Source of the DNA: Spirochaetales bacterium
GTDB taxonomy: Bacteria; Spirochaetota; Spirochaetia; SZUA-6; DRHE01
Direction: 5' to 3'
Length of the DNA: 64,000 nt
NCBI GenBank assembly: GCA_030615505.1
Contig: JAUWZD010000003.1
Coordinates: forward strand, 5,736-69,735
Shown here in pieces: positions 42,825 to 64,000 of this stretch. A program made the position numbers and the translations under genes. The notes beneath the pieces were generated by a model, which made no database searches, had not been told where the DNA came from, and saw nothing but the letters and a program-made list of their open reading frames with translations. Positions within the stretch are counted from its first letter, which is position 1; each line of letters begins with the position of its first letter.

Positions 42825-42855
42825 ATTTTCCTCTATATATTTAATTGTTTCGTTT

Positions 42856-43578: not shown

Positions 43579-43581
43579 ATC

Positions 43582-46944: not shown

Positions 46945-46954
46945 TATTAATCCT

Positions 46955-49587: not shown

Positions 49588-49597
49588 TTTATTCTCC

Positions 49598-50068
49598 TTA
49601 TGCCGCTATTGGATTTTTATCCCTTTTAATGGCCATAAATCTTATATTAGCAGTTACATAAGCATTTGGAGAGATTTGTTTACCATTACTTGCTATAACC
49701 ACACCTGAAAAACTATCTTCCACCTTTTGAGTAGCCGTATTCAGAAATACAAGCTGATCAAATCCTCGGCCTTTACCATCGCGCTGCACCTCATCTCGAC
49801 TGGGCAGGATATCATTAATCGTGATCTCCCCGCCATCCGCGTAAAGTGTAATCGTCTTCTCAGGTACGAAAGAACCCATATTCATCGTACAAGTATAACC
49901 CTGAGAATCCAAAGAGATTGGCCCTAAATGATTCAGGACAAGCCCCTGTACGATATTCCAGTCCTCATCATAGGAACAACTATTGGCAAGACCTATACTT
50001 TTAAGTTTACGGTCTATCATGACAAGCACTTGAACCCAAGCGCCGCCGACAATTAATTTTTCTGCCAT
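49598..50068 (-). CDS. tail tube protein
   Basis: 156 aa, immediately downstream of the sheath gene. Confidence 0.6.
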   Translation of the reverse strand: MAEKLIVGGAWVQVLVMIDRKLKSIGLANSCSYDEDWNIVQGLVLNHLGPISLDSQGYTCTMNMGSFVPEKTITLYADGGEITINDILPSRDEVQRDGKGRGFDQLVFLNTATQKVEDSFSGVVIASNGKQISPNAYVTANIRFMAIKRDKNPIAA

Positions 50069-50082
50069 TTTAATTTACCTCC

Positions 50083-51789: not shown

Positions 51790-51805
51790 ATATAACCTCC
51801 TCTTT

Positions 51806-51991
51806 TTATTCTATTTTTCTAGTGAGCGTGGTTTGAATAAGTTCTTTCCACTCTTTTTCGGTTCTAAGATTTTTTCCAAGAAGATCTATAAGCATTTTCT
51901 CAATTTGCTGATCATATTTTTCCTCTTGTTTATTGAGATATTTCTGAATACTGAGCTTGATTATTAACCTTTCTTTTTTAGGACGACCCAT
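51806..51991 (-). CDS. hypothetical small protein
   Basis: 61-aa ORF. Confidence 0.35.
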   Translation of the reverse strand: MGRPKKERLIIKLSIQKYLNKQEEKYDQQIEKMLIDLLGKNLRTEKEWKELIQTTLTRKIE

Positions 51992-52694
51992 ATCCTATCT
52001 CCTTATACGTATGATCAACCCCAGCTATAGTCTTAATCTCCGTATTAACAAAATATTGATTCAAAGGATAATCAGCGGGAATGCCGATCATTCCCCCGAA
52101 ATACATCTTGCCGAAATCAAAATTATAATTACCGGATCGCTGTCCATTTAACTGTTCTTCAAACAATTTCACGCTATAGATTTCATCTATTTCGTATCGT
52201 TTTTTGCCGACAAAAAAGGCATAAACTAAATCGTATATTTTATTTTTTAGCTGAGGATTATCTGTCCAGACCTCAATAGAAATCGCAGCCCTTCTCATTG
52301 TACCCGTCCCTTCACTCCAACTGTACTCATTTGCTTGAATAAAGGTCTTTAAAGCTTCCAGATCAGCATCAGGAACCAAATATAGTTCCCGATTGTTTTC
52401 AATATCCTTAATCTCATCTATAGTGATTTTCTTCGGATGAAGTAAAGGTTTAAGCTCCACAGGTTTCGTATCATTTGTTACAACTATGGTTATTGAGGGA
52501 AAGAGATCATTTGGAATAGGAGTGTTGTTAATCTCCTTATCAAAAAGAAAGGCAAACGGATGAGTAAGGTCTATCCTGATATTGGCATAGTTAGGATACA
52601 TACTCCCGAACTTAATCTCATCCCTGAAATACTCTCTCATTTGTTTTAATAGTATTTCCTCAACATCTGGACAGAAGGTTATTACATACTTCAT
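51978..52694 (-). CDS. neck/tail-completion protein (by position)
   Basis: 238-aa ORF between the head and sheath modules. Confidence 0.35.
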   Translation of the reverse strand: MKYVITFCPDVEEILLKQMREYFRDEIKFGSMYPNYANIRIDLTHPFAFLFDKEINNTPIPNDLFPSITIVVTNDTKPVELKPLLHPKKITIDEIKDIENNRELYLVPDADLEALKTFIQANEYSWSEGTGTMRRAAISIEVWTDNPQLKNKIYDLVYAFFVGKKRYEIDEIYSVKLFEEQLNGQRSGNYNFDFGKMYFGGMIGIPADYPLNQYFVNTEIKTIAGVDHTYKEIGYGSS

Positions 52695-53533
52695 AAGCCC
52701 AGATCCTTTCTTAAACCGTATTCAATCAGATTTTCCACATCTTCCTTTGAAACATCCCAGATAGCCTGAGTAATGTGCATGGCTGGCATAGCAGGTTTCA
52801 TCCAGGACCCCTCGGGAGAATCTTCGCTGATCACCCGGAAGGTAAAATAGGTACTATGTGTAGCCCTGGGAGTCCCCGTATCAAAGACAACCATACCCTC
52901 AAGATTGGCAAACTCTACCTTCAGTCCTCTTAACCGACCTCCCCAGGAATAAGTCGCCCGGGGTATCATCTCACCGCTGATATTCGGTTCATATTTGCCA
53001 GATCCTTCGGGTGCGGCCGTTACAGCACTCTTTTCAAACTCCCCCTTTTTGATTAATCCCTGAATCATCCTGTAAATAATGTCTGGCATGGGATTGCCCT
53101 GAGCTTTGGGCGTATGATGTCTAAAGGGAATGATTAAATAGCCTACTTTTCTCTCTCCTCCTCCTTTGATTTTCTTGATAGCTACCCTGGACTTTCTGCC
53201 AAAAGGATGAGTTGTTTTAAAATCAACCCCTCTGGTTCCCTCTTCCAGCCATTTAGCAACGTCGGCCTCCGAGTAAACTTCCCAGTCAAAGGGAGAAAAT
53301 TGTCTGACTTTGATTGACCTTGCGTACCCTCCAGAGGGATTTTTTAACCGATGGGGGAACCCTTTTAATGGATTACCCGAGGCAAAAGATTTCCACTGTG
53401 GCATTAGTATCTTAGTAACTGCATATCGGAAAGCATCTGCAGTGGCCGGCATGCTCTTCTTGCCTACGGCTTCTAGGTTGCTTATGAGATTAGAGAAGTT
53501 TTCGTCCATAGCACTGACAGTAATTCTTATCAT
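52691..53533 (-). CDS. neck/head-tail joining protein (by position)
   Basis: The ATG at 53533 is preferred. The track TTG start at 53611 would read through an intrinsic terminator hairpin. Confidence 0.4.
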   Translation of the reverse strand: MIRITVSAMDENFSNLISNLEAVGKKSMPATADAFRYAVTKILMPQWKSFASGNPLKGFPHRLKNPSGGYARSIKVRQFSPFDWEVYSEADVAKWLEEGTRGVDFKTTHPFGRKSRVAIKKIKGGGERKVGYLIIPFRHHTPKAQGNPMPDIIYRMIQGLIKKGEFEKSAVTAAPEGSGKYEPNISGEMIPRATYSWGGRLRGLKVEFANLEGMVVFDTGTPRATHSTYFTFRVISEDSPEGSWMKPAMPAMHITQAIWDVSKEDVENLIEYGLRKDLGL

Positions 53534-53544
53534 GGCCCCAAAAT

Positions 53545-53587
53545 AAAAAAGCCGAGAAATTCCAAATTTCCCTTGAAATCTCTCGGC
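53545..53587 (-). terminator. rho-independent terminator (bidirectional shape)
   Basis: Stem GCCGAGA (53551-57) / TCTCGGC (53581-87) with 3 further pairs after one mismatch. Flanked by A6 and T7 runs. Confidence 0.55.
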
Positions 53588-53663
53588 TTTTTTTGCAATA
53601 CCGAATTTCAAAAAATATTTACTATACGTTAATATTTTACTCTTTTATTCTGTTCTAATCAAG

Positions 53664-55199
53664 CTATATTCCCTCGTTTACATTCCCTCCCGCACTAAAC
53701 AGTTTAATTGCCACCCTTTTAGGCAGTCTCTGATTCTCAGCCGACCTTACCCCCGGAAACTCCCGTAAAACCCGGTATGTGGGATAAAAATCGAATAAAA
53801 CGTACATATTCTCCCCCGCAACCGGAGTATTACCGATCCATTTAATCCTATTTCTGTCAAACAGAATATAGTCGGTTCCCTTTACATATTCTGCGGCCAG
53901 AGTCTCAATAGATTGTACTTCAGACACATAAAATTCCGGGATCCTATCATAGTAGCCTATAATATCGTCTACTACATTCGTCGAGTCTGCGGCGCCATGC
54001 ACATCATCGGTCGTTAATATCCTGTGAGCTTCATATCCAGTCTTGATCGCCCCGGCCATGGTAGAAATTTCAGTCCAGGTGGCACCTTCCTCGAGATCCT
54101 CTTCTGTAACGGGATTAGTTTCATCAGCCGCCCCATGTACGCTGTCTACCAGCGCACAGTGAGCGTTGAACTGTGTTTTCAAATCATTTGTCAGCGTAAT
54201 AGCCGTTGCCTTTGTATCTGCATCGGCCGCGGTCACTGCATTTGTATTATCAGCCGCCCCATGAACTCCACCCGTAGTAAAGACTCGGTGAGCTTCATAC
54301 TCTACTTTCAACTCATTTAATAGAGCATATATCTCTTCTGGTACCGTACTATCGGACTCAGCCGTTGATTTCGTTAGGATTCTCTTCTGTGTTTGAGTAC
54401 CTATCAGTAGGGTAATCACGTCCCCCTCGCCCACCCTGCAATAACTGGGGAAGGTCAAAGATGCGTCCCCACCGAGCTCGGCCAGCCATTCTTGATCGGT
54501 TTTCCTCGCCATTTGACTGACAACCAGAAACTTAAACGGGGGCAGATAGGTAATCTCTGCCTTAATAACATCCGTTGGCTCCGGTTCTATTGATGGTTCT
54601 TCGGTGATTATCTTGTTTCTGTAGAAACTGAATACGGTATATTCTTCTGCCTTAGTCTCGTTCTCAATCTTGACCACGGACAGAATATCTCCGGTTATTT
54701 CCCCATATTCAGTAAGAATGTAAATATCAGCCTCAAACTGATTATTTCCCAGATACTTACAGTCTACGGTTAGGGTTTCATATAGTAATCTGGTATAAGA
54801 CGCTTTGAGGAATTCGTTTTTATACGGCTTTCTCTCGCCCAAGAAAGTAATATAGTTCCCCTCAACGCTTACGATTGTATATTTTTCTTCCCTTCGATAA
54901 TCCATTAGCGAAATCACGCTATTAATGGTATCCTCAGTCCTAACCCTGCAGACCCAATCGCTCGTTACAACCGCGTCTTGATCGTAAATATCTGCACTTT
55001 TCTGAAAGTCATATTTAAAACCATCACCTTTGCAATATTGACAATGTAAATCAGGTCTACCAGTATCAAGTATGCATGAGCATTTCTCCCCTATCATCCA
55101 GCGTATCCACTGACCTTGGCGAGTTATTAAGGCTTCATGGGTTTCTCGGGATAATCTTAGTTTGATGGGTGAATATTTGCTAAGACCTTTAATACTCAT
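53664..55199 (-). CDS. virion-module protein with N-terminal Cys4 cluster and 3 x ~40-aa VHGAAD repeats
   Basis: CSC...CQYC. Repeats YEAHRVFTTGGVHGAADNTNAV / FNAHCALVDSVHGAADETNPV / YEAHRILTTDDVHGAADSTNVV. Confidence 0.45.
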   Translation of the reverse strand: MSIKGLSKYSPIKLRLSRETHEALITRQGQWIRWMIGEKCSCILDTGRPDLHCQYCKGDGFKYDFQKSADIYDQDAVVTSDWVCRVRTEDTINSVISLMDYRREEKYTIVSVEGNYITFLGERKPYKNEFLKASYTRLLYETLTVDCKYLGNNQFEADIYILTEYGEITGDILSVVKIENETKAEEYTVFSFYRNKIITEEPSIEPEPTDVIKAEITYLPPFKFLVVSQMARKTDQEWLAELGGDASLTFPSYCRVGEGDVITLLIGTQTQKRILTKSTAESDSTVPEEIYALLNELKVEYEAHRVFTTGGVHGAADNTNAVTAADADTKATAITLTNDLKTQFNAHCALVDSVHGAADETNPVTEEDLEEGATWTEISTMAGAIKTGYEAHRILTTDDVHGAADSTNVVDDIIGYYDRIPEFYVSEVQSIETLAAEYVKGTDYILFDRNRIKWIGNTPVAGENMYVLFDFYPTYRVLREFPGVRSAENQRLPKRVAIKLFSAGGNVNEGI

Positions 55200-56326
55200 A
55201 TTGAACCTATGATAAATCTCGCAAACTTATTTCTATTATTTTTAATATATCTCTCTATTTCGTCACCATAGATTTTAATACGCGCGCCAAAATATGGGTT
55301 CTCAACGCCCTGCGTACTCGAGAAACTTTCTGCAATACCATCCATAGACAAACTACTTGATGAAAAACCTGCCAGTAAACCATCACCTACAATCGCCAGA
55401 AGCCTCATGGCAGCCCATTTGCCCATTACATCTCTAAGGTCATCTGGAATCAATCCTGCGTGCTTCCGTCCCACGCAATAGTCCACGCGGTAGGCGTGAG
55501 GATAATTGACGCCTGAGAAATATAATCCCGCAGCGGTAAAATGGATACCCAGACTTGTCTGTATCGTACCGGTCGGTCCAGCTTTAGGAAAGAAATGAAT
55601 AACTCCCTTCCGATGATCAATCCGTATCCATGGTAATAGATTCAATATTCTTAGGCCAGTTATAGCACAAAAATCAAATCTTTCCACGGATAGAATGGGT
55701 GCTCTCCGCAAGGTGATATGTCCGACTCTCGTCCATCTGTGCGGATTATACGGATATGGATCCTCCGCAAAATCATAATCCAATCCCTCAGTAAGTGAAT
55801 CATCTGGCTGGCAAAGCACTTTCTTTTTATGGATTTTTATATTCAGAGTTCGCTCAAACTCAGCTACCGTAGATTTGATTGTATATCGTATCTGTTGATC
55901 CGTAAAACTCTCACCGTTTGAAGCTCTGAAATCAATGCCCCAAAGGAAATGAAACCTCAAATCGTCCGCAGTCAACACCTCCCCAAATTGCTCTTCAGGC
56001 GGTTCATAGTTCTCAAACGTCCAGCCTACTTTCTCATCACCGATATTCACCCAATCGCCGTATTCATAATCTGAGGGATCGCCGACTGTGTATTCTATTC
56101 GATAGCGGTATTGATAGAGTCCTGCAGGTAAGTCATAGTCTGTGAATCGGGTAGAGGTTAAGAGTTCGGGGTCCCCAATGTCGGTCCACTGAGTACCGTC
56201 CCAGAATAACCAGGATCCATCAAGTATCTTTCTTTCCAGACGATAACCTGAAAAGTTATCTTGTCCTGAAGCATCTTCTAATGTTATGACAACATCTAGA
56301 TTAATCTTGATTGCTGTGATTTGCAT
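55196..56326 (-). CDS. virion-module protein with N-terminal FN3-like domain
   Basis: YRLERK...YQYRYRIEY beta-sandwich-like pattern. ATGA coupling to the next gene. Confidence 0.4.
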   Translation of the reverse strand: MQITAIKINLDVVITLEDASGQDNFSGYRLERKILDGSWLFWDGTQWTDIGDPELLTSTRFTDYDLPAGLYQYRYRIEYTVGDPSDYEYGDWVNIGDEKVGWTFENYEPPEEQFGEVLTADDLRFHFLWGIDFRASNGESFTDQQIRYTIKSTVAEFERTLNIKIHKKKVLCQPDDSLTEGLDYDFAEDPYPYNPHRWTRVGHITLRRAPILSVERFDFCAITGLRILNLLPWIRIDHRKGVIHFFPKAGPTGTIQTSLGIHFTAAGLYFSGVNYPHAYRVDYCVGRKHAGLIPDDLRDVMGKWAAMRLLAIVGDGLLAGFSSSSLSMDGIAESFSSTQGVENPYFGARIKIYGDEIERYIKNNRNKFARFIIGSI

Positions 56327-56343
56327 GAGATTAGCCTTTTGAG

Positions 56344-56369
56344 AAAAAAGGGGAAGTCAAACTTCCCCC
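56344..56369 (-). terminator. rho-independent terminator
   Basis: On the minus strand, GGGGAAGT-TTG-ACTTCCCC followed by T6, 5 nt after the stop of 56374..56679. Confidence 0.6.
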
Positions 56370-56373
56370 GATA

Positions 56374-56679
56374 TTAAACTTTCTTATAGCCTGGCACCTT
56401 CAAAAAGTGCTCATATTCTGCTTTGCTCACCACCGCAATTCCATCTTCGTCAAATACGGCTGGTTTCCCCGGTGTTATTCCATAAACGGATTGACCTGCT
56501 CTCACAAGATTTTTAATCTGAAATTTAGAACTTCCAGATTTTTTATCTTTTTTATCGTCCTTGGGATCGAGAGCTGAAGGATTCTCCGGGAGGTCGGTTT
56601 CGGGATTATCATTCTGATCACCCGAAGGATTTACGGGAAGATCAGCTTGCGGATTATCATTCTTATTTTTTCTCTTCAT
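56374..56679 (-). CDS. hypothetical protein with NDNP-x-DLP-x-NPS repeat
   Basis: 101-aa ORF. NDNPQADLPVNPS / NDNPETDLPENPS. Confidence 0.4.
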   Translation of the reverse strand: MKRKNKNDNPQADLPVNPSGDQNDNPETDLPENPSALDPKDDKKDKKSGSSKFQIKNLVRAGQSVYGITPGKPAVFDEDGIAVVSKAEYEHFLKVPGYKKV

Positions 56680-56689
56680 TAATTACTCC

Positions 56690-57139
56690 TTATCTCTTGA
56701 CCGCTAGTATGGTTACTAAGCCTTTTACTCCAGCAATACCATTACCAGAAGCGCAGACAATTTCCAGGGTATCACCCTTTGAAATTGTTGAGTAGTCATC
56801 ATCAATAGTACCAGCCCGATCTATGGCATTGTCAGTCGCACAGACTATTGCATCCGTAATAACGTCGGCACCTTTTAATTGCATGGTTCCACCCGTAACA
56901 GTTCCCCTGGCCTGAATAATCACATCCAGGATTTCAAAATCAAACGGAGCATCGGCATTAAAAATCTCTAAACCGCTGGCCGCACCGATTGTAACCTCAT
57001 ATTCTATGATGATCGGGAAAAAGACTTCAGTCTCTAACTCGCCCTTTTCCAGTTTTTCCAGTTTATTACCCAGTTTGACCCCGCCCAGCATCGGACAACT
57101 GCGATTAAGCCTAGCTAACTCTTTTTCACTGAATATCAT
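56690..57139 (-). CDS. possible head decoration/accessory protein
   Basis: 149 aa, immediately downstream of the major capsid gene. Positional inference only. Confidence 0.35.
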   Translation of the reverse strand: MIFSEKELARLNRSCPMLGGVKLGNKLEKLEKGELETEVFFPIIIEYEVTIGAASGLEIFNADAPFDFEILDVIIQARGTVTGGTMQLKGADVITDAIVCATDNAIDRAGTIDDDYSTISKGDTLEIVCASGNGIAGVKGLVTILAVKR

Positions 57140-57204
57140 AATTGTCTCCTTTAAAGTTAAAGTAAGGAAGGGAGAATATTCCCCTCCTTATTCCTCCTTT
57201 CTCC

Positions 57205-58602
57205 TTAGAACCAGTTCATGGTCCGATAGCCGACGTTCTTGACCATCCCGTGATACCAAGGAACCTTGATATCTAATGCGCCAAATAAAACGATCAAGAA
57301 TGGGATAATTGCTGCGTTGGTTGGAAATAAATCAAATTTCATGAGCGGCATGAACTGATCCCACTGGGCGGCTGGTTGCATACTGTCCTCGCTAACCATA
57401 ACAAGCTCACCGGTCCCCGGTAACCACTCGTCTACGTCATTCGTAATAACGTCTGTGGCCGCCGTAGCTGAAGTTGCAACTTTATACATCTCACGGCAAT
57501 CCGTACCATCCGCAGCATCTTTCTTAGACCGACAGACGATATATCCGGTTTGATCATCATCCGCATGAGGAGTAATGGTGATCTCTACCATTTGTCCAGC
57601 GGTTGGAGCCGCAGAAGCCGCCACACACCCAGCAGAAATACCGGTCTTGCTGATAGCGAAAACCTGATAGTAGTAAGTTCCGGCAGTTTCAGCGGTAAAC
57701 CCACAAGCTCCAGCAGTTTTAGCCTTAGCCAGCAGAGCCATAGTAGGCGCACCAGGTGGTTCATCACCTATAGTCACTGGCAGGGCTTTCACCCTGAAGA
57801 ACTTGTCCGGTCCAGCAGCCTCCCCAGCGACTAGAATATCACCACTGAATGGCGTAGGATAAGCTTCGATTACCATCGAACCCAGCCGATCATTCGGGTT
57901 AGTTCTTAATCTGTCTTTGATCAGATCTTGAATATCCCGAGAGATAACAGGCGGCGTAAAAGCGTGAGTAGCATAACCACCGGCTTCATAAATCATCCGG
58001 GCAAGATCAGATATAGCATTTTCTCCGTCGGCCGCGGTCATATCTTTACCGCGCAGGTCTACAATATTTTGCTTGGTTGTAGCGGCGGCAAGAATCTGGT
58101 TCTGAATGCTGTCAAACTGCTCGGGTACAGCATCTTTGTCACCGTGAAAACAACCTAACTCACAACCTTTCAGAATTGTAAGAGTCCCAGCCTCTTTTTC
58201 AGAAGCTTCAGCATCTTCCAGGGTGGTGGCAGCTCTCATCTGCAGGGTAAGCTTACGGTAAGTCTGCATGTACTTCATCGGCATGGTGATTCTTGCGAGA
58301 GTCTGAGAGGTCTCAATCGAATCTTCACCTTCTCCGACGAAGATCAGTCTTTCATCCCCAACATCCTCTCGGCGGGTATACTCATGAATGGTAGAAGTAA
58401 CAGGCTGTTTCTTCAGCAAGTTCATGAGCTTGAAATCCTGTCGTTTGAATGTTAGAGCATGAACTAGAGTTTTTTCGATATCTTGCGGAATAAGCGCACG
58501 ACCACCTGCCATGGCAGCCGCATCGGTTTCATATCCCGCTTCCAGGGCTTTCATTAAGTCGTTGACTGCCCCGACCTTAAAATCAACATCGTGTAAAAAC
58601 AT
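57205..58602 (-). CDS. major capsid protein
   Basis: 465 aa, directly after the protease/scaffold gene, followed by hairpins. The N-terminal motif is shared with the scaffold protein. Confidence 0.6.
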   Translation of the reverse strand: MFLHDVDFKVGAVNDLMKALEAGYETDAAAMAGGRALIPQDIEKTLVHALTFKRQDFKLMNLLKKQPVTSTIHEYTRREDVGDERLIFVGEGEDSIETSQTLARITMPMKYMQTYRKLTLQMRAATTLEDAEASEKEAGTLTILKGCELGCFHGDKDAVPEQFDSIQNQILAAATTKQNIVDLRGKDMTAADGENAISDLARMIYEAGGYATHAFTPPVISRDIQDLIKDRLRTNPNDRLGSMVIEAYPTPFSGDILVAGEAAGPDKFFRVKALPVTIGDEPPGAPTMALLAKAKTAGACGFTAETAGTYYYQVFAISKTGISAGCVAASAAPTAGQMVEITITPHADDDQTGYIVCRSKKDAADGTDCREMYKVATSATAATDVITNDVDEWLPGTGELVMVSEDSMQPAAQWDQFMPLMKFDLFPTNAAIIPFLIVLFGALDIKVPWYHGMVKNVGYRTMNWF

Positions 58603-58625
58603 ATTCTATAACCTCCTTTTCTTCT

Positions 58626-60038
58626 TTAATCAATAGATTTCAAAATCCGAAGATCTTCGTCGGCGATAGCGATTCCCTTGTTGAGTCTATCTTCAAGAAT
58701 GCTGTGTTTCCTCAACGTTATTTTCCCTTTTTCTAGAGCGAGTCCAGCCTTCTTTAAGATTTCCTGTCGGCCCATGACAACCTCTTTGCCGTCATCACCG
58801 AGAAACTTACGTTCGGATTTCTTGAGGACAGATTTCCGGGCTTCTGGCTTATCGCCCAAGCTCTTGGTAAACTTCATGGTTGCACCGAGAGCTTTACCAA
58901 TAGCCTCATTCTTCTGTTCCTGAGCGTCAAATCGTTTTTCAAGAGCCTCAAACTTATCAGACATGCTCTTAACAAAACTTTTCAGAAACTTTGAAACGTC
59001 AAGGAGTTCCTCTTCTTCCTCTTCAACCTTTTCAAGAAGAGATTTTTTAGCCGTTTTCTTCAATCTTTCCTCTTCTTCCTTCTTCTTCTTCTCTTCCTCT
59101 TCTTCAGGCGATAGAGGCGGAGTCTCGGGCGGAATCTCAGGAGGGATAGTAGGCTCCTCTTCCTTCTTTTTCTCGCCCTTCATAGCCTTTTCGAGTTCCT
59201 CTATAGACTCGTCAAAGGCTTTTTCAAGAGTTTCATCACCCATAATATTCACTCCTTTTTTTACAAAATTTTTCTTCTGCACTATTAACTTGAGAATCTG
59301 GTCGGTATCCTCTTCTGAATACCCTCGATTCTTCAAAAATTGCCTTGCTTCATCTACAGTCTTTATGTCTCCAAAAGTTAGAGCCATAACTACCGCAGTA
59401 ATATTTTTCTTATCTTTGCCGCCTTCAAGATCCTCTGGAATCAAAGCCTGTCCACCTGTCATTTTGGCGGCATCCGTTTCATAGCCTGCCTGCAGGCTCT
59501 TAACAAAACCTTTTGAAGATAAACTTGCAGGCATCAACGTTTGATTGACTGGCTTGTATGTTAAAGCCAATTCATCCCATGCCACGCTTACCACTTTTTC
59601 CACAAACTTTCTTAATTTGTTATCAAAGACTTTCTTTATGACAGGTTTTTTCCCGGCTATACTTGTTTTAACAAGCTTAGAACCGTCTTTAAGCTTGCTA
59701 ATGATTTCCTGTACAATCTTGTTTGATTTATATAAAAGAGCTTTTACAAAAGTCTTATCTCCAGATTTTTTAACTTCTAGTGGCTCCCCGATGATATATT
59801 TCTCAGAATTCCAGTCTTTCTCCCCCGGAACCGGTTTTAGATGCCTATGATCGTAAGAGACTAGACCATTTTGAAGAAAGTAATCCTTCGATTCTAACAG
59901 CGCACGTTGTAGAACCTGCTGTTCTTCATAATCAAGATTCTCATTTGAAGCCTCGGCCCAGATGATATAATTACCATTGGCATCCGTTTCGATAGACTTT
60001 GAGAGTATAAGTTCTAAAAAGACTTCTTTTTCTTCCAT
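58626..60038 (-). CDS. prohead protease / scaffold fusion protein
   Basis: N-terminal ...NYIIWAEASNENLDYEEQ...VSYDHRH resembles S78/U35-type prohead proteases. The C-terminal E/K-rich coiled coil is scaffold-like. The track TTG start at 60080 lies inside a terminator hairpin, so I use the ATG at 60038. Confidence 0.5.
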   Translation of the reverse strand: MEEKEVFLELILSKSIETDANGNYIIWAEASNENLDYEEQQVLQRALLESKDYFLQNGLVSYDHRHLKPVPGEKDWNSEKYIIGEPLEVKKSGDKTFVKALLYKSNKIVQEIISKLKDGSKLVKTSIAGKKPVIKKVFDNKLRKFVEKVVSVAWDELALTYKPVNQTLMPASLSSKGFVKSLQAGYETDAAKMTGGQALIPEDLEGGKDKKNITAVVMALTFGDIKTVDEARQFLKNRGYSEEDTDQILKLIVQKKNFVKKGVNIMGDETLEKAFDESIEELEKAMKGEKKKEEEPTIPPEIPPETPPLSPEEEEEKKKKEEEERLKKTAKKSLLEKVEEEEEELLDVSKFLKSFVKSMSDKFEALEKRFDAQEQKNEAIGKALGATMKFTKSLGDKPEARKSVLKKSERKFLGDDGKEVVMGRQEILKKAGLALEKGKITLRKHSILEDRLNKGIAIADEDLRILKSID

Positions 60039-60052
60039 AAAGCCCGGAAAAT

Positions 60053-60086
60053 AAAAAAAGCCAGCTGCCCCGAAGGACAATCGGCC
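60053..60086 (-). terminator. candidate rho-independent terminator
   Basis: On the minus strand, GGCC..TGTCC-TTCG-GGGCA..GGC followed by T7 (60059-60053). Imperfect lower stem. Confidence 0.4.
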
Positions 60087-60186
60087 TGTTCCTTAAAACC
60101 GTTTTGGCGTGGGAATAAGAACCTCTTTTCCCCACAATCTTTAATAAAATAATGTATTCTTAGTTTATGTTAAACAATAATTTATT

Positions 60187-60408
60187 TTATGTCAACAGTT
60201 TCCTTTGCCTCAATAAATTCGTATAGGCAGTTTTTTCTTTTTCACCGCCAGTTTCGGCTTTTCGCTTAAAAATCTCAATCTGATTCTGAACCATATTATA
60301 CCAGCGGTTTTTTGTTTTGGCAACCCCTTTTTTGACATTAAGACCGCGTTTTCTTAATACTTCGGTATGGGAGAGTAATTTGATTAGTTTATCTCTGTCA
60401 TCTTTCAT
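60187..60408 (-). CDS. hypothetical basic protein
   Basis: 73-aa ORF. Confidence 0.4.
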   Translation of the reverse strand: MKDDRDKLIKLLSHTEVLRKRGLNVKKGVAKTKNRWYNMVQNQIEIFKRKAETGGEKEKTAYTNLLRQRKLLT

Positions 60409-60417
60409 ATTGTCTTT

Positions 60418-60693
60418 TTATACGAGCGTTATTTTATACCCTTTTTCTTCAAGCAATTTTTTGAGTTGATTAGACATATCTCTTGCATGATCTATACTAA
60501 ATACCGCACCACTGATGTAAAATGAATTGCCTCCCTCTTTGGGTTTAGTAATATCTACGGCACAACTCCAACCCCAGTCATTCTCACGACAATGAGAACG
60601 ACCCTTTAATAATTCTGGCAGATTTTCAATACATGATTCCAGATCATCAATTTTAACTGGTTTATTAGCTACAATATCTATACTCCAGCTCAT
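60418..60693 (-). CDS. hypothetical protein
   Basis: 91-aa ORF with ATGA overlap with the small upstream ORF. Confidence 0.45.
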   Translation of the reverse strand: MSWSIDIVANKPVKIDDLESCIENLPELLKGRSHCRENDWGWSCAVDITKPKEGGNSFYISGAVFSIDHARDMSNQLKKLLEEKGYKITLV

Positions 60694-60791
60694 GTCAACT
60701 TTCCCCTATCTTTGTCTCTTTGGATCTCATCAATATCATAATCTGCTTTTAGCATTTCGATTTTCTTAATCTTAATTCTCTTTTTACCCAT
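60690..60791 (-). CDS. small ORF (33 aa) not in the supplied track
   Basis: The ATG at 60791 abuts the helicase stop (TAGATG), and its TGA overlaps the next ATG (ATGA). Hand translation: MGKKRIKIKKIEMLKADYDIDEIQRDKDRGKLT*. Confidence 0.35.
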   Translation of the reverse strand: MGKKRIKIKKIEMLKADYDIDEIQRDKDRGKLT

Positions 60792-63700
60792 CTACGCTAC
60801 TCCCTCCAGCCCTTGATTATATTTATATTGCTTTACTTGATCAATATATGAGGCCAGCCCTACATCGTCTAGGCTACCAGGGTCAAGTTGAAAAACCGCT
60901 CCTAACTCGGCTTTTCGCTGTATTCTGTCCCATTTAATCTTCTCATGCTCCGTGTCCGTAACAATATCATGATAGTCTATCTCTTCGTGTAGTTGCCCAT
61001 GTCTATCAATACGCCCCATTCTTTGCTCTCGCACCCAGGAAGTATGAGGAAGATCATAATTCATAAGATATTTTGCATTTTGTAGGTTTATTCCCGTTGC
61101 CCCTGCATCTGAACACAGCAAAATATCATATTTTCTATCTTTCGGATTTGGCGGATTAAAAGCATTCTTGACAATATCTTTTTCTTTGCCACTTAATGAA
61201 CCCTGAATTACACCTACTCTCACTCCGTATTCTCCTAGAGCTTTTTGTATTTGGTTAATGGACTCAATATTGTGAGCGAATATTACTCCAGGTTGCATAT
61301 CACCTACTTTAGCTCCACTTGCAGGATGATCTGCCATATATACTTTTTCAGAGATCAGATTCAACACTTTTTGGATTTTCGCATTAGTTCCATGCGGATG
61401 TTGATTGACTACTCTGTTCAAAGCTTCCTCTTTAATTACACCTATAGATTCCTGCAACCTTCTTGTAATATCTTCATGTCTTTCTGAAGATATACCTTTA
61501 AAACTGTTAGGAGAAAGCAGTTTCATAGCCTCAATGTCAGCTTTCCCCGCTCGATGAGCTTTTTGAGTACGTTTAAACGCACTTTCTACTTGTTTGTGTG
61601 CCTCAATCTGTTCTTTAGACAATTTAATTGTTTCTTTTTTCTCATTACGCCTAACCCCAGTAACCGTAGGAGAGGCATAATTGTATCTGGAAATCAATCT
61701 TCTTAAAGATTCTTTCGTAAAAGAAGAGTCAATTCCGTATCGTTTTATAAACTCATTTCTGTCATTAAATTTCTGTGGATCTATCTTTTTGAGCATATCA
61801 AACGCTTCACTTGCATCATTTTTAACCGGCGTAGCAGACTGGTTCATAAAATATGGAGTATTCTGATTCAGAGCATCAAGAACATTCGCTAAGGTACTAT
61901 CTGGCTTACCCTTTCTTTTGGTTGTATAATGAGACTCATCCACAACCAGCATAATGTCTGATTCAATTCCTTCTTTATCCATAACCTCTTTCATCAACTT
62001 TTTTCTTTCAGTCTGAGAAATAGAGTTAAAATATTTTTTCGTTTCATTTTCGCTCTTATTAATATGAGAACTGAGAAGATAAATCATGTCGTCTCTCAAA
62101 GATTGATGGGTAAATACTGCCATATCAAGTTTGTTATCTTTAAGAGCTACTATCCTCTCTTCTCTGGACATTCCAGGATTCGCATTCCAATTATATTTCC
62201 CGGGTTCCGTATATTTCAACATTTCAGAATTATGATTCCAAAATCCTTGACACCAATAATTATGGGTTAGTGGAATCTCAATATCATATACATCTTGACA
62301 ATTTAGTGGAGAAATGCTTATTATCCTATTGGTTCTTAAATATGAGTAGGCTAAAAATCCAAATTGAGAAAACCGTTCTTGTTGAATTGATAAATCAAGA
62401 TCTTTCAGAGCGTGACATTGCTGCAAAACTCGGGATGAATTATACCACTGTTCATCATCGGATAAAAGAATATGGCTTAAAAACCCATAATTGTTGCAAT
62501 TATCACATGGATGAAGATCAATTACGCAAATGGGTTCTACAAGATCATCGTTCTTGCTCCTGGATTGCAAAACAGATTGGTTGTTCCCGGTCTGCTGTTC
62601 GATTAAAACTTGTTGCGATGGGGATTGAGCGTGTTGGTAATATTTATCGCCATCAAGGTAATAAGGCCAATAATTGGCATGGTGGACGTATTTATCGACA
62701 TGATTATGTAAAGATTCTTGTAAAAAATCATCCCCGCGCTGATTCCGCAGGTTATGTTGGTGAACATATCCTCGTAATGGAACGATATTTAAGCCGATAT
62801 CTTCATGACAATGAGGTCGCCCACCATAAAAACGATCAAAAAGATGATAATCAGATTGATAATCTTGAATTGATGGGAGATCGTAAACACAGGTCCCTTC
62901 ATGCATTGAAATATCACCAGAAAAGACGCAAGAACCTTCGTTTAATTCCATAAGATATTCCCATCCTCGCTCTGTCAGAAACCTGTGTTTTCCAGTTACA
63001 ATTATCTTATTTCCATTATCCAGTTTTACTTCATACATTAGATCCTGACCTTTTATAAAAGGAATACTTGCCAGGAGTATTATTAACTTACCACTCTCTG
63101 TTAAACTATATACAAAAGGACGTACTTTCTGATTTTTCATTTCCCTAAAAGTCAAACTCTTATTTCTTATAGGATCATATAATATCGTATCACCCGTTAC
63201 ACATCCAAATTGCGCCTGAACTACAGAAGGAACAGCATATATTGCTCTGCTAACTTTTCCTTTGCTCTTTAAATTTGTAAAAGCTCCAATCGAAACAATT
63301 GACTTTCCTTTACCAGTCCCAAAACTAATATTAATTCGCTTTGCTTTTTCAAACATCTTAATCGCACGTTGTTGCTGGATATGTTTATCGCTGGACATTG
63401 TCATGCCCGCGAATACTTTGACTTTCTCTCCTCTGCGAAAATTAGTCGATACTTCGGGAATCAAAGACTTTAGTTGCACTTCTGCGCGCTTGCCTATAGT
63501 AATGATTTCCGACCCATCATCTTGCTTGACTTCTTCTTCTCCAAACAATCCAAGTTGAGCTTGATCCTGCTTGCGTATCTCTTCTAATAACTGAAGTGCC
63601 CTATCTCTCCGGACACCAGCCGCAAATTTTCCACCCTTTCTTTCTGCTACCTTTGCTGTTGCCGATTGCATTTCAGCCTGTACTTTATTTAGAATGTTAT

Positions 63701-64000
63701 CCCGCATTTCTTTGTCAAGAGTACCCAAGACATGATCTTCCCAATTAGCTATCTTTTTAACTCCTGTTTTTATCGGTTCGCCATGAACTCGACCATGATT
63801 TCTAGCATATTCTTTGAGGAAATCGCCTTTGATTTTATCTAATATAGTTTCTTGTGATCTTTTGACATCTCCATGCATTCGCACATATTCTCCCCAAGAG
63901 GTTTGTTCTCGCCGGACTTCACCTGCTTCCAGCTCGGCTTCTGTGGCGCCGCTCATATATTTGATATAATGATCTCGCATTTGAGATTCATACAATTCGG
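60792..64000 (-). CDS. large SNF2/DEAD-like helicase-domain protein, intein-containing, 5' end outside the window
   Basis: The frame is open to the window edge. Motif I GTGKGKS, Ia AVPSVVQAQFG|...|SEMLKY, II VVDESH, V-VI LLCSDAGATGINL ... QRMGRIDRHGQ. Confidence 0.8.
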   Translation of the reverse strand, partial: ELYESQMRDHYIKYMSGATEAELEAGEVRREQTSWGEYVRMHGDVKRSQETILDKIKGDFLKEYARNHGRVHGEPIKTGVKKIANWEDHVLGTLDKEMRDNILNKVQAEMQSATAKVAERKGGKFAAGVRRDRALQLLEEIRKQDQAQLGLFGEEEVKQDDGSEIITIGKRAEVQLKSLIPEVSTNFRRGEKVKVFAGMTMSSDKHIQQQRAIKMFEKAKRINISFGTGKGKSIVSIGAFTNLKSKGKVSRAIYAVPSVVQAQFGCVTGDTILYDPIRNKSLTFREMKNQKVRPFVYSLTESGKLIILLASIPFIKGQDLMYEVKLDNGNKIIVTGKHRFLTERGWEYLMELNEGSCVFSGDISMHEGTCVYDLPSIQDYQSDYHLFDRFYGGRPHCHEDIGLNIVPLRGYVHQHNLRNQRGDDFLQESLHNHVDKYVHHANYWPYYLDGDKYYQHAQSPSQQVLIEQQTGNNQSVLQSRSKNDDLVEPICVIDLHPCDNCNNYGFLSHILLSDDEQWYNSSRVLQQCHALKDLDLSIQQERFSQFGFLAYSYLRTNRIISISPLNCQDVYDIEIPLTHNYWCQGFWNHNSEMLKYTEPGKYNWNANPGMSREERIVALKDNKLDMAVFTHQSLRDDMIYLLSSHINKSENETKKYFNSISQTERKKLMKEVMDKEGIESDIMLVVDESHYTTKRKGKPDSTLANVLDALNQNTPYFMNQSATPVKNDASEAFDMLKKIDPQKFNDRNEFIKRYGIDSSFTKESLRRLISRYNYASPTVTGVRRNEKKETIKLSKEQIEAHKQVESAFKRTQKAHRAGKADIEAMKLLSPNSFKGISSERHEDITRRLQESIGVIKEEALNRVVNQHPHGTNAKIQKVLNLISEKVYMADHPASGAKVGDMQPGVIFAHNIESINQIQKALGEYGVRVGVIQGSLSGKEKDIVKNAFNPPNPKDRKYDILLCSDAGATGINLQNAKYLMNYDLPHTSWVREQRMGRIDRHGQLHEEIDYHDIVTDTEHEKIKWDRIQRKAELGAVFQLDPGSLDDVGLASYIDQVKQYKYNQGLEGVA
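62295..62324 (+). promoter_or_regulatory. candidate sigma70-type promoter for the antisense HNH gene
   Basis: TTGACA (62295-62300), 18-nt spacer, TATTAT (62319-62324), 17 nt before the ATG at 62342. There is no SD, so the mRNA would be short-leadered. Confidence 0.3.
62342..62953 (+). CDS. HTH-HTH-HNH homing endonuclease encoded antisense inside the intein
   Basis: Two HTH units (LSERDIAAKLGMNYTTVHHRIKEYG, SCSWIAKQIGCSRSAVRLKLVAMG) and the HNH motif GEHILVMERYL...VAHHKNDQKDDNQIDNLELMGDRKHRSLH. The open frame starts at 62270 (GTG), and the ATG at 62342 is preferred. Confidence 0.7.
   Translation: MSRLKIQIEKTVLVELINQDLSERDIAAKLGMNYTTVHHRIKEYGLKTHNCCNYHMDEDQLRKWVLQDHRSCSWIAKQIGCSRSAVRLKLVAMGIERVGNIYRHQGNKANNWHGGRIYRHDYVKILVKNHPRADSAGYVGEHILVMERYLSRYLHDNEVAHHKNDQKDDNQIDNLELMGDRKHRSLHALKYHQKRRKNLRLIP

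What the first reader, a model, noticed from the sequence alone, without database searches (positions are those of the whole stretch)
62229..63203. Intein whose central region is the stop-free antisense strand of a complete HNH homing-endonuclease gene
Seen directly in the sequence:
- The minus-strand helicase ORF carries a textbook class-1 intein (C-VTGDTIL ... TGKH ... DVYDIEIPLTHNY ... GFWNHN|S, 325 aa).
- Between the N- and C-terminal splicing blocks (about aa 360-555 of the ORF) the minus-strand translation is compositionally odd (Q/H/Y/D/N-rich). It has no LAGLIDADG, HNH or GIY-YIG pattern that I can see.
- The plus strand of exactly this segment encodes a well-formed protein of 204-227 aa with two HTH units and a clear HNH motif. 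A TTGACA-N18-TATTAT promoter-like site sits just upstream.
- So about 610-680 bp are open on both strands. The two frames share codon position 1.

In this phase a minus-strand stop requires a plus-strand NTT|A, NCT|A or NTC|A codon junction. Such junctions should be common in AT-rich coding DNA, yet none occurs across the whole HNH gene. That argues for selection to keep the intein translatable.

Established knowledge: intein homing endonucleases are normally in-frame domains of the intein polypeptide. Free-standing HNH genes that cooperate with endonuclease-less group I introns (collaborative homing) are known in phages.

Inference: this looks like a mini-intein that captured, or co-evolved with, an independently transcribed HNH gene in reverse orientation. 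The intein would then be mobilised by an enzyme that is not part of the spliced-out peptide. I do not know of a described case.
Basis: partly seen in the sequence, partly recalled or inferred. Interest (0 to 1): 0.9.

Follow-up and report, generated by a model that had tools for sequence, protein, structure and literature searches.

The report
Intein carrying an antisense HNH homing-endonuclease gene
A self-splicing protein insert (intein) in a prophage helicase gene carries its homing-endonuclease gene on the opposite DNA strand, and about 20 related phage inteins share this layout; the layout is known for other nuclease families but I found no report of it for HNH.

Summary
Window 62229..63203 (-) is a 325-aa class-1 intein, cleanly inserted at ...AQFG|SEML... 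of a 2076-aa SNF2-type prophage helicase. Its centre is the stop-free antisense reading of an intact 2xHTH + HNH_3 gene (62342..62953, +).

- **Not chance:** synonymous shuffles expect 9 stops, and none of 20,000 shuffles stayed open.
- **Recurrent:** about 20 distinct related inteins carry a homologous antisense HNH gene. They sit in helicases, terminase large subunits and other large phage proteins (GC 0.37-0.66), including cultured Pectobacterium phage Ymer. All use the same phase, and the intein frame is always open.
- **Selection switches strand:** substitutions fall on intein wobble positions in the two splicing lobes, but on HNH wobble positions in the centre.
- **Mobility signature:** the 37 closest helicase homologues lack the intein, while two distant helicases (31-39% identity) carry it at the same site with 50-59% identical splicing domains.
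- **Own expression signals:** the HNH start codon and a -10-like hexamer sit at conserved positions.

Its "no described case" is only partly right: antisense LAGLIDADG (1998/2002) and antisense VSR-like (2025 preprint) intein endonucleases are published. I found no report of antisense HNH. Verdict: new variant of a known kind. No experiments were done.

The parts
60792..63995 (-). C-terminal 1067 codons of a 2076-aa SNF2/ResIII-type prophage helicase precursor. The ORF continues beyond the window end.
   Evidence: Helicase_C, ResIII, SNF2-rel_dom; phrog_62 DNA helicase; P0056 is the full-length self match.
62229..63203 (-). Class-1 intein, 325 aa (helicase residues 265-589 in window numbering). 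Cys1 is at 63201-63203, His-Asn at 62229-62234, and the +1 Ser codon at 62226-62228.
   Evidence: coordinates; Intein_splicing, 38.8 bits; clean insertion at QFG|xE against 37 intein-free homologues.
62871..63203 (-). N-terminal splicing (Hint) lobe, intein residues 1 to about 111, including block A Cys1 and block B T70-x-x-H73.
   Evidence: Alignments A1 and A4 with related inteins and mini-intein P0046. In related pairs, substitutions here fall on intein codon position 3.
62343..62870 (-). Intein-frame linker, about 176 aa (intein residues 112-287). It is the antisense reading of the HNH gene. The peptide is not conserved and is only kept free of stops.
   Evidence: No Pfam domain. Intein-frame identity among homologues is 0.21, against 0.41 in the HNH frame. 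Substitutions peak at intein codon position 2. The AF2 model shows no secondary structure here, but the model is low-confidence.
62229..62342 (-). C-terminal splicing lobe, intein residues about 288-325 (RIISISPLNCQDVYDIEIPLTHNYWCQGFWNHN, blocks F and G).
   Evidence: Related pairs show the position-3 substitution pattern here.
62342..62953 (+). HNH homing-endonuclease gene: 203 aa plus stop, with two HTH units and an HNH_3 core. An alternative in-frame GTG lies at 62270.
   Evidence: all family-invariant residues are present. In 17 loci the start codon lies at a conserved 104-152 nt from the intein C-end; here it is 113 nt. AF2 gives mean pLDDT 75.5, with 83-92 in the HNH core.
62360..62602 (+). 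Two helix-turn-helix DNA-binding units: residues 31-70 and 88-111 of the 227-aa ORF.
   Evidence: Pfam HTH_50 (2.5e-8) and HTH_28 (1.2e-6). The AF2 model shows two three-helix bundles.
62765..62902 (+). HNH (His-Me finger) catalytic core: ...EVAHHKNDQKDDNQIDNLELMGDRKHRSLH.
   Evidence: Pfam HNH_3 covers residues 166-207. Invariant H, H, N, N, H, H columns are shared with P0001-P0007 and with 9 antisense homologues.
62903..62953 (.). True dual-coding stretch. The basic C-terminal tail and stop codon of the HNH gene overlap the last strands of the N-terminal splicing lobe (intein residues about 84-101).
   Evidence: Coordinate mapping k = 577 - j and alignments A2 and A4.
62295..62324 (+). Promoter-like site TTGACA-N18-TATTAT, 17 nt upstream of the HNH ATG. 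It lies inside the antisense of the C-terminal splicing lobe.
   Evidence: 11 of 12 matches. A -10-like TANNNT starts between -30 and -10 of the HNH start in 12 of 17 related loci, against 1.7 expected. Function is not shown.

Best explanation
This is a composite mobile element made of two genes on opposite strands of the same DNA.

**Minus strand.** The prophage helicase is translated as a precursor containing a 325-aa class-1 intein. The intein's two splicing lobes (about 111 aa and about 38 aa) are joined by a linker of about 176 aa. The linker is simply the antisense reading of the HNH gene. It has no conserved sequence of its own and only needs to stay free of stop codons, so that the lobes can dock and splice the helicase together. 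This step is inferred from intact motifs.

**Plus strand.** A 203-aa 2xHTH-HNH_3 endonuclease would be made from its own promoter, which lies inside the intein's C-terminal coding region. The protein would recognise the intein-less helicase allele around ...QFG|SE... and nick or cut it. Repair from the intein-containing copy would then carry intein and HNH gene across together (homing). This step is inferred from the comparative signature.

**Origin.** The arrangement probably arose once, when a free-standing phage HNH gene entered the endonuclease slot of an intein. It has since spread among phage helicase, terminase and other genes as one unit.
For: - **Both genes intact.** The intein keeps C1, TxxH, block F, HN and +1 Ser, and scores above the Pfam cut-off. 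The HNH keeps every family-invariant residue.
- **Clean insertion.** Shown against 37 intein-free homologues.
- **Stop-free antisense frame is not chance.** 0 of 20,000 synonymous shuffles stayed open, with 9.1 stops expected. All 40 risk codons (NTT/NCT/NTC) are followed by C, G or T and never by A. Free-standing homologues have 4-7 stops in this phase.
- **Recurrence.** Homologous antisense HTH+HNH_3 ORFs lie inside related inteins in L006, L010, L084, L085, L087, L088, L090, L093, L095, L098, L109, L111-L113, L115-L117, L124, L132, L136 and phage Ymer (L189). All share codon position 1 with the intein frame, and the intein frame is open in every case. Per-locus shuffle P(0) ranges from 0 to 0.04.
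- **Selection switches strand.** In L085/L088, differences at intein codon positions 1, 2, 3 run [5,5,20] and [6,4,20] in the N-lobe, [6,19,3] and [5,27,3] in the centre, and [3,5,12] in the C-lobe. Mean amino-acid identity is 0.41 in the HNH frame against 0.21 in the intein frame.
- **Homing signature.** Helicases 34-73% identical to the window's lack the intein. P0058 and P0059, only 31-39% identical in the exteins, carry it at the same QFG| site with 50-59% Hint identity.
- **Co-divergence.** Hint and HNH identities co-vary (r = 0.50, Mantel p = 0.0015).
- **Conserved expression signals.** The HNH start codon lies 104-152 nt from the intein C-end. A -10-like hexamer is enriched upstream, in 12 of 17 loci against 1.7 expected. 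In six high-GC loci it starts at exactly -12.
- **Viable phages carry it.** Lytic Pectobacterium phages of the Ymer group carry the architecture in their terminase large subunit, so splicing must tolerate such a linker (PMC11445585).
Against: - Nothing here is experimental. There is no evidence that the window's HNH is transcribed or translated, that the intein splices, or that the HNH targets the empty helicase site.
- The window HNH scores just below Pfam's HNH_3 gathering threshold (22.2 against 24.8 bits).
- The ATG at 62342 has no Shine-Dalgarno motif.
- The number of promoter-like sites in the region is not above shuffles (7 against 5.6).
- No close relative (above 60% identity) of this particular copy was found, so recent selection on it cannot be measured. 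The closest Hint domain, in L109/P0058, is 54-58% identical.
- The intein structure model is too poor to show a disordered linker (mean pLDDT 34.9).
- Foldseek and PDB sequence searches gave no HNH structural match.
- The related loci are not all independent, which inflates the phase and promoter counts.
Confidence: 0.7

Rival explanations
1. The antisense HNH gene is functional but does not mobilise the intein. It would simply use the intein's dispensable centre as a safe harbour. Its target would be some other site, for example for its own spread, for phage-phage competition, or for DNA processing.
For: - Its closest relatives are free-standing HNH genes sitting between ordinary phage genes.
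- The target site is unknown.
- The Ymer Hint domain is far more diverged (0.24-0.35) than its HNH (0.38-0.48). This hints at some independent history of the two parts.
Against: - The intein at the same helicase site is better conserved than the host gene and is absent from the closest homologues. That pattern requires a site-specific nuclease.
- The phase is fixed and Hint and HNH co-diverge across about 20 loci.
- No other endonuclease is present in these inteins.
Confidence: 0.13
2. In this particular prophage the arrangement is a relic. The HNH gene is no longer expressed or active. The intein persists only because it still splices, or because the prophage is itself decaying.
For: - The ATG has no SD.
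- Pfam HNH_3 is sub-threshold.
- No close sister copies were found.
- Decay does happen in this family: HNH remnants of 81-90 aa lie in shortened inteins L005 and L092.
Against: - The 203-codon ORF has no stop or frameshift, and all invariant catalytic and structural residues are kept.
- An unexpressed antisense ORF in 37% GC DNA should break quickly. The other two plus-strand frames have 17 and 24 stops.
- The start position and an 11-of-12 promoter match are preserved.
Confidence: 0.12
3. This is a fractured gene. The helicase would be made as two polypeptides joined in trans by a split intein, with a free-standing endonuclease gene between the halves (Dassa et al. 2009 model). On this reading the continuous minus-strand frame is irrelevant.
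For: The topology is the same: N-lobe, then endonuclease gene, then C-lobe. Dassa 2009 is cited in bioRxiv 10.1101/2025.01.02.630785.
Against: - The minus frame is continuous here and in every related locus, despite 2.6-9.1 expected stops. That would need no selection if the halves were translated separately.
- No stop follows the N-lobe.
Confidence: 0.03
4. It is a chance or annotation artefact: a spurious plus-strand ORF, or a pseudogenised helicase.
For: Long antisense ORFs are common in some compositions. High-GC related loci show spurious alternative-frame ORFs with no Pfam hits (L071, L024, L052, L046, L008).
Against: - PHROG HNH hits at 9e-19.
- Homologues with HNH_3.
- Shuffle result of 0 in 20,000.
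- Recurrence in the same phase.
- Codon-position substitution pattern.
Confidence: 0.01

Closest known systems
Inteins with a homing endonuclease encoded on the antisense strand: antisense LAGLIDADG in Synechocystis dnaX and Chloroflexus SpoVR-like inteins (Gorbalenya 1998; Gogarten et al. 2002), and antisense LAGLIDADG and antisense VSR-like endonucleases in actinobacteriophage inteins (Gosselin, Arsenault and Gogarten, bioRxiv 10.1101/2025.01.02.630785)
   Same: - The endonuclease ORF lies between the splicing blocks on the opposite strand.
- The intein frame stays open across it.
- The in-frame peptide has no recognisable fold.
- The endonuclease is related to free-standing phage endonucleases.
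- The context is phage or prophage, and the distribution suggests continued transfer.
   Different: - The nuclease here is a 2xHTH + HNH_3 (His-Me finger) enzyme. In that survey HNH endonucleases were found only in frame.
- The hosts here are not actinophages. They range from a 41% GC bacterium's prophage to Pectobacterium phages and many metagenomic phages.
- The features shown here (fixed phase, strand-switching selection, conserved start and -10 element) do not appear in the sections of that preprint that I read.
   Same: An HNH_3-type nuclease occupies the endonuclease slot between the two Hint lobes of a phage helicase intein.
   Different: There the nuclease is part of the spliced-out peptide. 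Here it is a separate protein read from the other strand.
Fractured genes: split inteins with a free-standing endonuclease gene between the halves (Dassa et al. 2009)
   Same: A free-standing-type endonuclease gene sits at the intein's endonuclease insertion point. The proposed origin is also the same: invasion of an intein by a free-standing homing endonuclease gene.
   Different: The host gene here is not split. The intein frame reads through the endonuclease gene and is kept open.
Collaborative homing: free-standing endonuclease genes that mobilise endonuclease-less group I introns in phages
   Same: A splicing element and a separately encoded endonuclease would cooperate as one mobile unit.
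   Different: The splicing element here is a protein intein, and the endonuclease gene is nested antisense inside it rather than adjacent.
Free-standing phage HNH_3 homing endonucleases (PHROG 20891 and 7545; P0001-P0007)
   Same: They are 31-40% identical over the HTH + HNH core, with the same invariant residues.
   Different: They lie between genes and have 4-7 stops in the corresponding antisense frame.

Membership tests
Class-1 intein (Hint-fold protein-splicing element) | N-terminal Cys/Ser nucleophile, block B TxxH, C-terminal His-Asn, and a +1 Ser/Thr/Cys | tested here: met
   C1 (CVTGDTIL), T70-G-K-H73...FWNHN|S.
Class-1 intein (Hint-fold protein-splicing element) | Significant match to an intein splicing-domain profile | tested here: met
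   PF14890 Intein_splicing, E = 1e-9, 38.8 bits against a cut-off of 35.8. 611 intein-containing proteins matched at E <= 1e-3.
Class-1 intein (Hint-fold protein-splicing element) | Clean in-frame insertion relative to intein-free homologues of the host protein | tested here: met
   37 homologues read ...QFG|xE... with no inserted residues, apart from a 3-residue offset in P0043. The window has 325 extra residues exactly there.
Class-1 intein (Hint-fold protein-splicing element) | Protein-splicing activity | not testable with these tools
   Indirect evidence only: viable lytic Pectobacterium phages carry the same architecture in their terminase large subunit (PMC11445585).
HNH_3 / His-Me finger homing endonuclease | Profile match to HNH endonuclease families | tested here: met
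   PHROG 20891 (9.4e-19) and 7545 (1.7e-16), both annotated HNH endonuclease. Pfam HNH_3 gives only 22.2 bits, below the 24.8 cut-off. The antisense homologues in related inteins score 24-43 bits.
HNH_3 / His-Me finger homing endonuclease | Conserved catalytic and metal-binding His/Asn residues | tested here: met
   Invariant H161, H162, N170, N174, H183 and H187, plus the HPRADSxGYVxEHILVxE motif, are shared with P0001-P0007 and with nine antisense homologues.
HNH_3 / His-Me finger homing endonuclease | Beta-beta-alpha metal-finger fold | tested here: inconclusive
   The AF2 model has strands followed by a helix in the core at pLDDT 83-92. Foldseek against the PDB gave no significant match, and only the HTH parts aligned. 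The PDB profile search found HTH hits only.
HNH_3 / His-Me finger homing endonuclease | Site-specific DNA cleavage or nicking of the empty allele | not testable with these tools
Inteins with an antisense-encoded homing endonuclease (Gorbalenya 1998; Gogarten 2002; bioRxiv 10.1101/2025.01.02.630785) | A complete endonuclease ORF on the opposite strand, located between the N- and C-terminal splicing blocks | tested here: met
   The HNH ORF 62342..62953 (+) lies inside the intein 62229..63203 (-).
Inteins with an antisense-encoded homing endonuclease (Gorbalenya 1998; Gogarten 2002; bioRxiv 10.1101/2025.01.02.630785) | The intein reading frame stays open through the endonuclease gene, beyond chance | tested here: met
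   0 stops against 9.1 expected, and 0 of 20,000 shuffles open. The same holds in all related loci.
Inteins with an antisense-encoded homing endonuclease (Gorbalenya 1998; Gogarten 2002; bioRxiv 10.1101/2025.01.02.630785) | Endonuclease of the LAGLIDADG or VSR-like type, as in the described cases | tested here: not met
   The nuclease is HNH_3 with HTH domains. That is why this is filed as a new variant rather than a further member.
Inteins with an antisense-encoded homing endonuclease (Gorbalenya 1998; Gogarten 2002; bioRxiv 10.1101/2025.01.02.630785) | Distribution consistent with ongoing horizontal transfer | tested here: met
   The intein is absent from the 37 closest helicase homologues. 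It is present at the same site in helicases 31-39% identical, with 50-59% identical Hint domains.
Fractured gene / split intein with an intervening free-standing endonuclease (Dassa et al. 2009) | Host gene broken into two separately translated ORFs | tested here: not met
   There is a single continuous ORF across the intein.

The most novel reading that the evidence does not exclude
A large, previously unrecognised clade of mobile inteins in phages of many bacterial phyla keeps its homing endonuclease (2xHTH-HNH_3) permanently on the antisense strand. On this reading:

- the phase is fixed (shared codon position 1);
- the endonuclease is expressed from a conserved, often leaderless-type promoter embedded in the antisense of the C-terminal splicing lobe;
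- antisense encoding is an evolutionarily stable two-strand gene design that arose once and radiated across helicase, terminase and other phage genes, rather than a short-lived accident on the way to decay or to an in-frame fusion;
- convergent transcription might also couple endonuclease expression inversely to host-gene expression.
Probability: 0.5. Interest if true: 0.7.

Novelty: new variant of a known kind. Interest (0 to 1): 0.6.

Why it matters
- **Scope of the architecture.** Non-canonical intein architecture (endonuclease read from the other strand) is not confined to LAGLIDADG or VSR nucleases or to actinophages. It extends to HNH enzymes and to phages of Gram-negative and low-GC hosts.
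- **A clean example of long overlapping genes.** About 600 bp are shared on opposite strands. One frame is under protein-level selection and the other only under a "no stop codon" constraint. The direction of selection flips at the domain borders.
- **Origin of mobile inteins.** It supports the "splicing element first, endonuclease invades later" model.
- **Annotation.** These HNH genes are invisible to standard gene callers. In GenBank the Ymer terminase is a "hypothetical protein" and its HNH ORF is unannotated. Inteins of this kind are likely to be misfiled as decaying or mini-inteins.
- **Experimental access.** Cultured Pectobacterium phages make the model directly testable.

Tried and rejected
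- **DNA and short-word searches.** Megablast of the helicase region against GenBank phages found nothing. The word-indexed protein search with the intein alone found nothing. The single-protein scan of IMG/VR found nothing. tblastn of the window HNH against phages at 1e-8 found nothing. Relatives appeared only through the exhaustive HMMER search and alignment-based locus searches.
- **Structure of the intein.** The AF2 model from a 3-sequence alignment gave mean pLDDT 34.9. It cannot be used to claim a disordered linker.
- **Structure and PDB searches for the HNH.** Foldseek against the PDB and a PDB profile search returned only weak HTH matches. No HNH structure such as I-HmuI was recovered, so the fold claim rests on profiles and motifs.
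- **Spurious alternative-frame ORFs.** Those in the high-GC related inteins L071, L004, L024, L052, L046 and L008 gave no Pfam hits and were discarded.
- **Is the shared phase intrinsically stop-poor?** No. Free-standing homologues have 4-7 stops in that phase, similar to one of the other two antisense phases and fewer than the third. Common descent is the simpler explanation.
- **GTG 62270 as the start codon.** Rejected in favour of ATG 62342. Homology begins after residue 30, and the start position relative to the intein C-end is conserved in related loci.
- **Literature.** Six full-text searches found no report of an antisense HNH in an intein. The library lacks most subscription journals, so absence is not proof.
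- **Host organism.** I could not identify it.
Full report
**1. What is in the window**

The minus strand carries one long ORF, 60792..63995 (1067 codons), which runs off the window end. The exhaustive protein search found the full-length self match, P0056, at 2076 aa. Pfam finds ResIII/DEAD, SNF2-rel_dom and Helicase_C. Between them it finds Intein_splicing (E = 1e-9, 38.8 bits, cut-off 35.8). PHROGs calls the protein a DNA helicase (phrog_62).

The intein runs from Cys265 to Asn589 of the window ORF, which is 63203..62229, 325 aa. It has Cys1, T70-G-K-H73, DVYDIEI, His-Asn, and a +1 Ser codon at 62226-62228.

The best intein-free homologue, P0008 (62% and 73% identical in the two exteins), reads ...VPSVVQAQFG|EEMLK.... 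The insertion is therefore exact.

The neighbouring genes encode a head protease, major head protein, tail sheath, tape measure and baseplate proteins. This is a myovirus-like prophage or phage module.

**2. The plus-strand gene**

The ORF 62270..62953 (GTG, 227 aa), or 62342..62953 (ATG, 203 aa), lies entirely inside the intein.
- It matches HTH_50 (2.5e-8), HTH_28 (1.2e-6) and HNH_3 (1.1e-4; 22.2 bits, just under the 24.8 cut-off).
- It matches PHROG HNH-endonuclease families at 9.4e-19 and 1.7e-16.
- Seven database homologues (31-45% identity, all with Pfam HNH_3) were found.
- The three homologues whose contigs I read are free-standing genes between ordinary phage genes: scaffold/capsid, RecT/SSB, and next to another HNH gene.
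- The window protein keeps every invariant residue of that family: HPRADSxGYVxEHILVxE ... HH ... N ... N.L ... H ... H.
- An AlphaFold model from this alignment has mean pLDDT 75.5. It shows two three-helix HTH bundles and a strand-strand-helix core at pLDDT 83-92.
- Foldseek and a PDB profile search returned only weak HTH hits. The fold is therefore supported by profiles and motifs, not by a structural match.

**3. Geometry of the overlap**

The two frames share codon position 1, so helicase residue k = 577 - j for plus-ORF residue j.
- The HNH start, ATG 62342, abuts the first residue of the C-terminal splicing lobe.
- The HNH stop, at 62951-62953, lies 11 codons after block B.
- The HNH's basic C-terminal tail therefore shares about 17 codons (62903..62953) with the last strands of the N-terminal lobe.
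- Between the lobes, about 176 intein codons (62343..62870) are merely the antisense reading of the HNH gene. Pfam finds no domain there.
- The AF2 model of the intein was too poor to use (mean pLDDT 34.9). For what it is worth, residues 97-255 have no secondary structure.

**4. Is the double openness more than chance?**

Yes.
- In this phase a minus-strand stop needs a plus-strand NTT|A, NCT|A or NTC|A junction.
- The HNH ORF has 40 such risk codons and 64 A-initial codons, which gives 11.3 expected junction stops. It has none. The bases following risk codons are C 12, G 23, T 5 and A 0.
- Synonymous-codon permutation gives a mean of 9.1 stops, and 0 of 20,000 shuffles stayed open. Codon-order shuffling gives 11.2.
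- ORFs of the window average 6.7 stops per 100 codons in this antisense phase. Apart from this gene pair, the longest open run is 131 codons.
- The free-standing homologous HNH genes have 4-7 stops in the same phase.

**5. The architecture is recurrent**

The exhaustive search with the intein found helicases P0058 and P0059 with an intein at the same QFG| site. Their central regions are compositionally odd.

I used an alignment of N-terminal splicing lobes (A1) to fetch DNA from genomes, IMG/VR and metagenomes. I then listed alternative-frame ORFs nested in the inteins.
- Pfam finds HTH + HNH_3 in the antisense ORFs of L006, L010, L084, L085, L087, L088, L090, L093 and L095.
- An HMM built from these finds further antisense copies in L098, L109, L111, L112, L113, L115, L116, L117, L124/L127, L132 and L136.
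- tblastn against GenBank phages led to Pectobacterium phage Ymer and its relatives.
  - In the GenBank record, a 754-aa "hypothetical protein" next to the portal gene is in fact a terminase large subunit (Terminase_6N/6C) with an intein.
  - An unannotated 232-aa HNH ORF lies on the other strand.
  - The paper describing these lytic phages mentions neither an intein nor an HNH.
- Counting duplicates once, this comes to about 20 distinct elements. They sit in helicases, terminase P-loops and other very large phage proteins, with GC from 0.37 to 0.66.
- In every one, the HNH frame shares codon position 1 with the intein frame, and the intein frame is open across the HNH gene.
- Per-locus synonymous shuffles expect 2.6-9.1 stops, with P(0) between 0 and 0.04.
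- The shared phase is not intrinsically stop-poor in free-standing relatives. Common descent of the composite is therefore the simplest reading.

**6. Which strand is under selection**

The antisense HNH proteins align well over a 147-column core.
- Over the same DNA, mean pairwise identity is 0.41 in the HNH frame and 0.21 in the intein frame.
- Differences by HNH codon position 1, 2, 3 total 3175, 2738 and 4278.
- Along close pairs the pattern flips. For L085/L088, differences at intein positions 1, 2, 3 run as follows:
  - first 60 codons: [5,5,20] and [6,4,20];
  - centre: [6,19,3] and [5,27,3] (intein position 2 is the HNH wobble position);
  - C-terminal lobe: [3,5,12] and [1,0,4].
- L006/L090 behaves the same way.

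So the splicing lobes evolve as intein-coding DNA. The centre evolves as an HNH gene on the other strand. The intein-frame linker is constrained only to avoid stops.

**7. Signs of mobility and of unit behaviour**

- 37 helicase homologues (34-73% identical to the window's exteins) have no insert at QFG|xE, apart from a 3-residue offset in P0043.
- P0058 and P0059, only 31-39% identical in the exteins, carry the intein at exactly that site.
- Their splicing lobes are 50-59% identical to the window's.
- An intein that is better conserved than its host gene and sporadically distributed is the classical homing signature (established knowledge).
- Hint and HNH identities co-vary across 13 elements (r = 0.50, Mantel p = 0.0015).
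- Decay also occurs. The shortened inteins L005 and L092 retain only 81-90-aa HNH remnants.

**8. Expression signals (inference)**

- The likely HNH start lies 104-152 nt inside the intein's C-terminal end in 17 loci. It is 113 nt both in the window and in L084.
- A -10-like TANNNT hexamer starts between -30 and -10 of that start in 12 of 17 loci, against 1.7 expected from each locus's own background.
- In six high-GC loci the hexamer starts at exactly -12. That would fit leaderless mRNAs. Other loci have clear SD motifs.
- In the window the site is TTGACA-18-TATTAT at 62295..62324, 11 of 12 matches.
- Caveats: the loci are related, I chose the start codons myself, the window ATG has no SD, and the total count of promoter-like sites in the region is not above shuffles.

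**9. Mechanism**

Shown:
- two intact genes lie on opposite strands;
- selection acts on each in its own segment;
- the intein frame is kept stop-free;
- the arrangement recurs;
- the distribution is sporadic.

Inferred:
- The helicase precursor splices despite an unconserved linker of about 176 aa. This is plausible because viable Ymer-type phages need their terminase (the same argument is made for actinophages in bioRxiv 10.1101/2025.01.02.630785).
- The HNH is made separately from an internal antisense promoter, cuts or nicks the empty site, and so moves the intein and itself together.

Rivals:
- the HNH is a lodger with another target;
- this copy is a silent relic;
- a split-intein "fractured gene";
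- chance.

These are weighed in the rival list. The last two are contradicted by the conserved open frame.

**10. Comparison with what is known**

Several exist.
- Antisense LAGLIDADG endonucleases in inteins were reported by Gorbalenya (1998) and Gogarten et al. (2002).
[quoted passage not shown] It proposes the same origin, invasion of an intein by a free-standing endonuclease gene.
- In that survey HNH endonucleases were only in frame.
- Six full-text searches found no report of an antisense HNH. The library is incomplete.

I therefore file this as a new variant of a known kind. The architecture is the same, but the nuclease family and host range differ. The comparative evidence here (fixed phase, strand-switching selection, conserved start and -10 element, cultured exemplars) does not appear in the sections of the preprint that I read.

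**11. Verdict**

- Observation: confirmed.
- Interpretation: supported. The novelty claim is reduced, and the start codon is refined to ATG 62342.
- Interest: 0.6. A specialist would not be astonished by an antisense endonuclease in an intein. However, a large and conserved HNH clade of this kind, with experimentally tractable phages, is new and useful.

Noticed in passing
L089:4239-5216 (+), L091:4215-5270 (+), L097:4050-5456 (+): Related inteins in DNA-polymerase-like phage genes carry DUF559/Vsr-like endonuclease ORFs on the same strand, in the +1 frame relative to the open intein frame (Pfam DUF559 1e-9 to 1.6e-13). This resembles the out-of-frame architecture that the 2025 preprint reported for endonuclease VII.
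   Followed up: partly
L096:2230-2847 (+), L107:4021-4764 (+): HNH_3 ORFs lie inside related inteins on the same strand but in the +1 and +2 frames, not in frame with the intein (Pfam HNH_3 1.3e-7 and 9.2e-12). The intein frame stays open in both loci.
   Followed up: partly
L005:4212-4481 (-), L092:4206-4448 (-) (L092 = L128): Shortened inteins of 196 and 199 aa retain only 81-90-aa antisense remnants of the HNH gene. They look like intermediates on the way to mini-inteins.
   Followed up: partly
L189 (Pectobacterium phage Ymer OP748252.2): CDS 1080-3344 (-), ORF 2453-3151 (+): The terminase large subunit of this cultured lytic phage is annotated 'hypothetical protein'. It contains an intein with an unannotated 232-aa antisense HNH ORF in the same phase. 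tblastn finds the same HNH segment (43-45% identity to the L006 query) in relatives Abuela, Koroua, Amona, Taid, Pappous, Sabo and Dickeya phage Setonix, but I checked the context only in Ymer. The genus paper (PMC11445585) does not mention it.
   Followed up: yes
P0057 (two inteins), P0059 / L084 (second intein downstream in the helicase): Other large phage helicase-like proteins carry two inteins each. Their long central regions are R/S/P/A-rich and look like alternative-frame readings of further nested genes. I did not examine the DNA of these second inteins.
   Followed up: no
L084, L006, L090, L093, L095, L098: 12 nt upstream of the inferred HNH start: In these high-GC loci a TANNNT hexamer starts exactly 12 nt before the HNH start codon. 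This suggests leaderless transcripts. In L084 and L109 the hexamer is the antisense of a Tyr-Ser dipeptide in the intein frame.
   Followed up: partly
window 60792..64000: The helicase ORF is cut by the window end. The TTG at 63995 listed by the ORF tool is not the real start. The full protein (P0056) has about 1009 more N-terminal residues.
   Followed up: yes
window about 37000..64000 (-): This is a contiguous minus-strand block of phage structural genes (head protease, major head, sheath, tape measure, baseplate), consistent with a myovirus-like prophage. The left part of the window looks chromosomal. I did not identify the host organism.
   Followed up: partly
Ymer (L189) compared with the other elements: The Ymer splicing domain is much more diverged from the others (0.24-0.35 identity) than its HNH is (0.38-0.48). 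This hints at either unequal rates or exchange of HNH cassettes between inteins.
   Followed up: no
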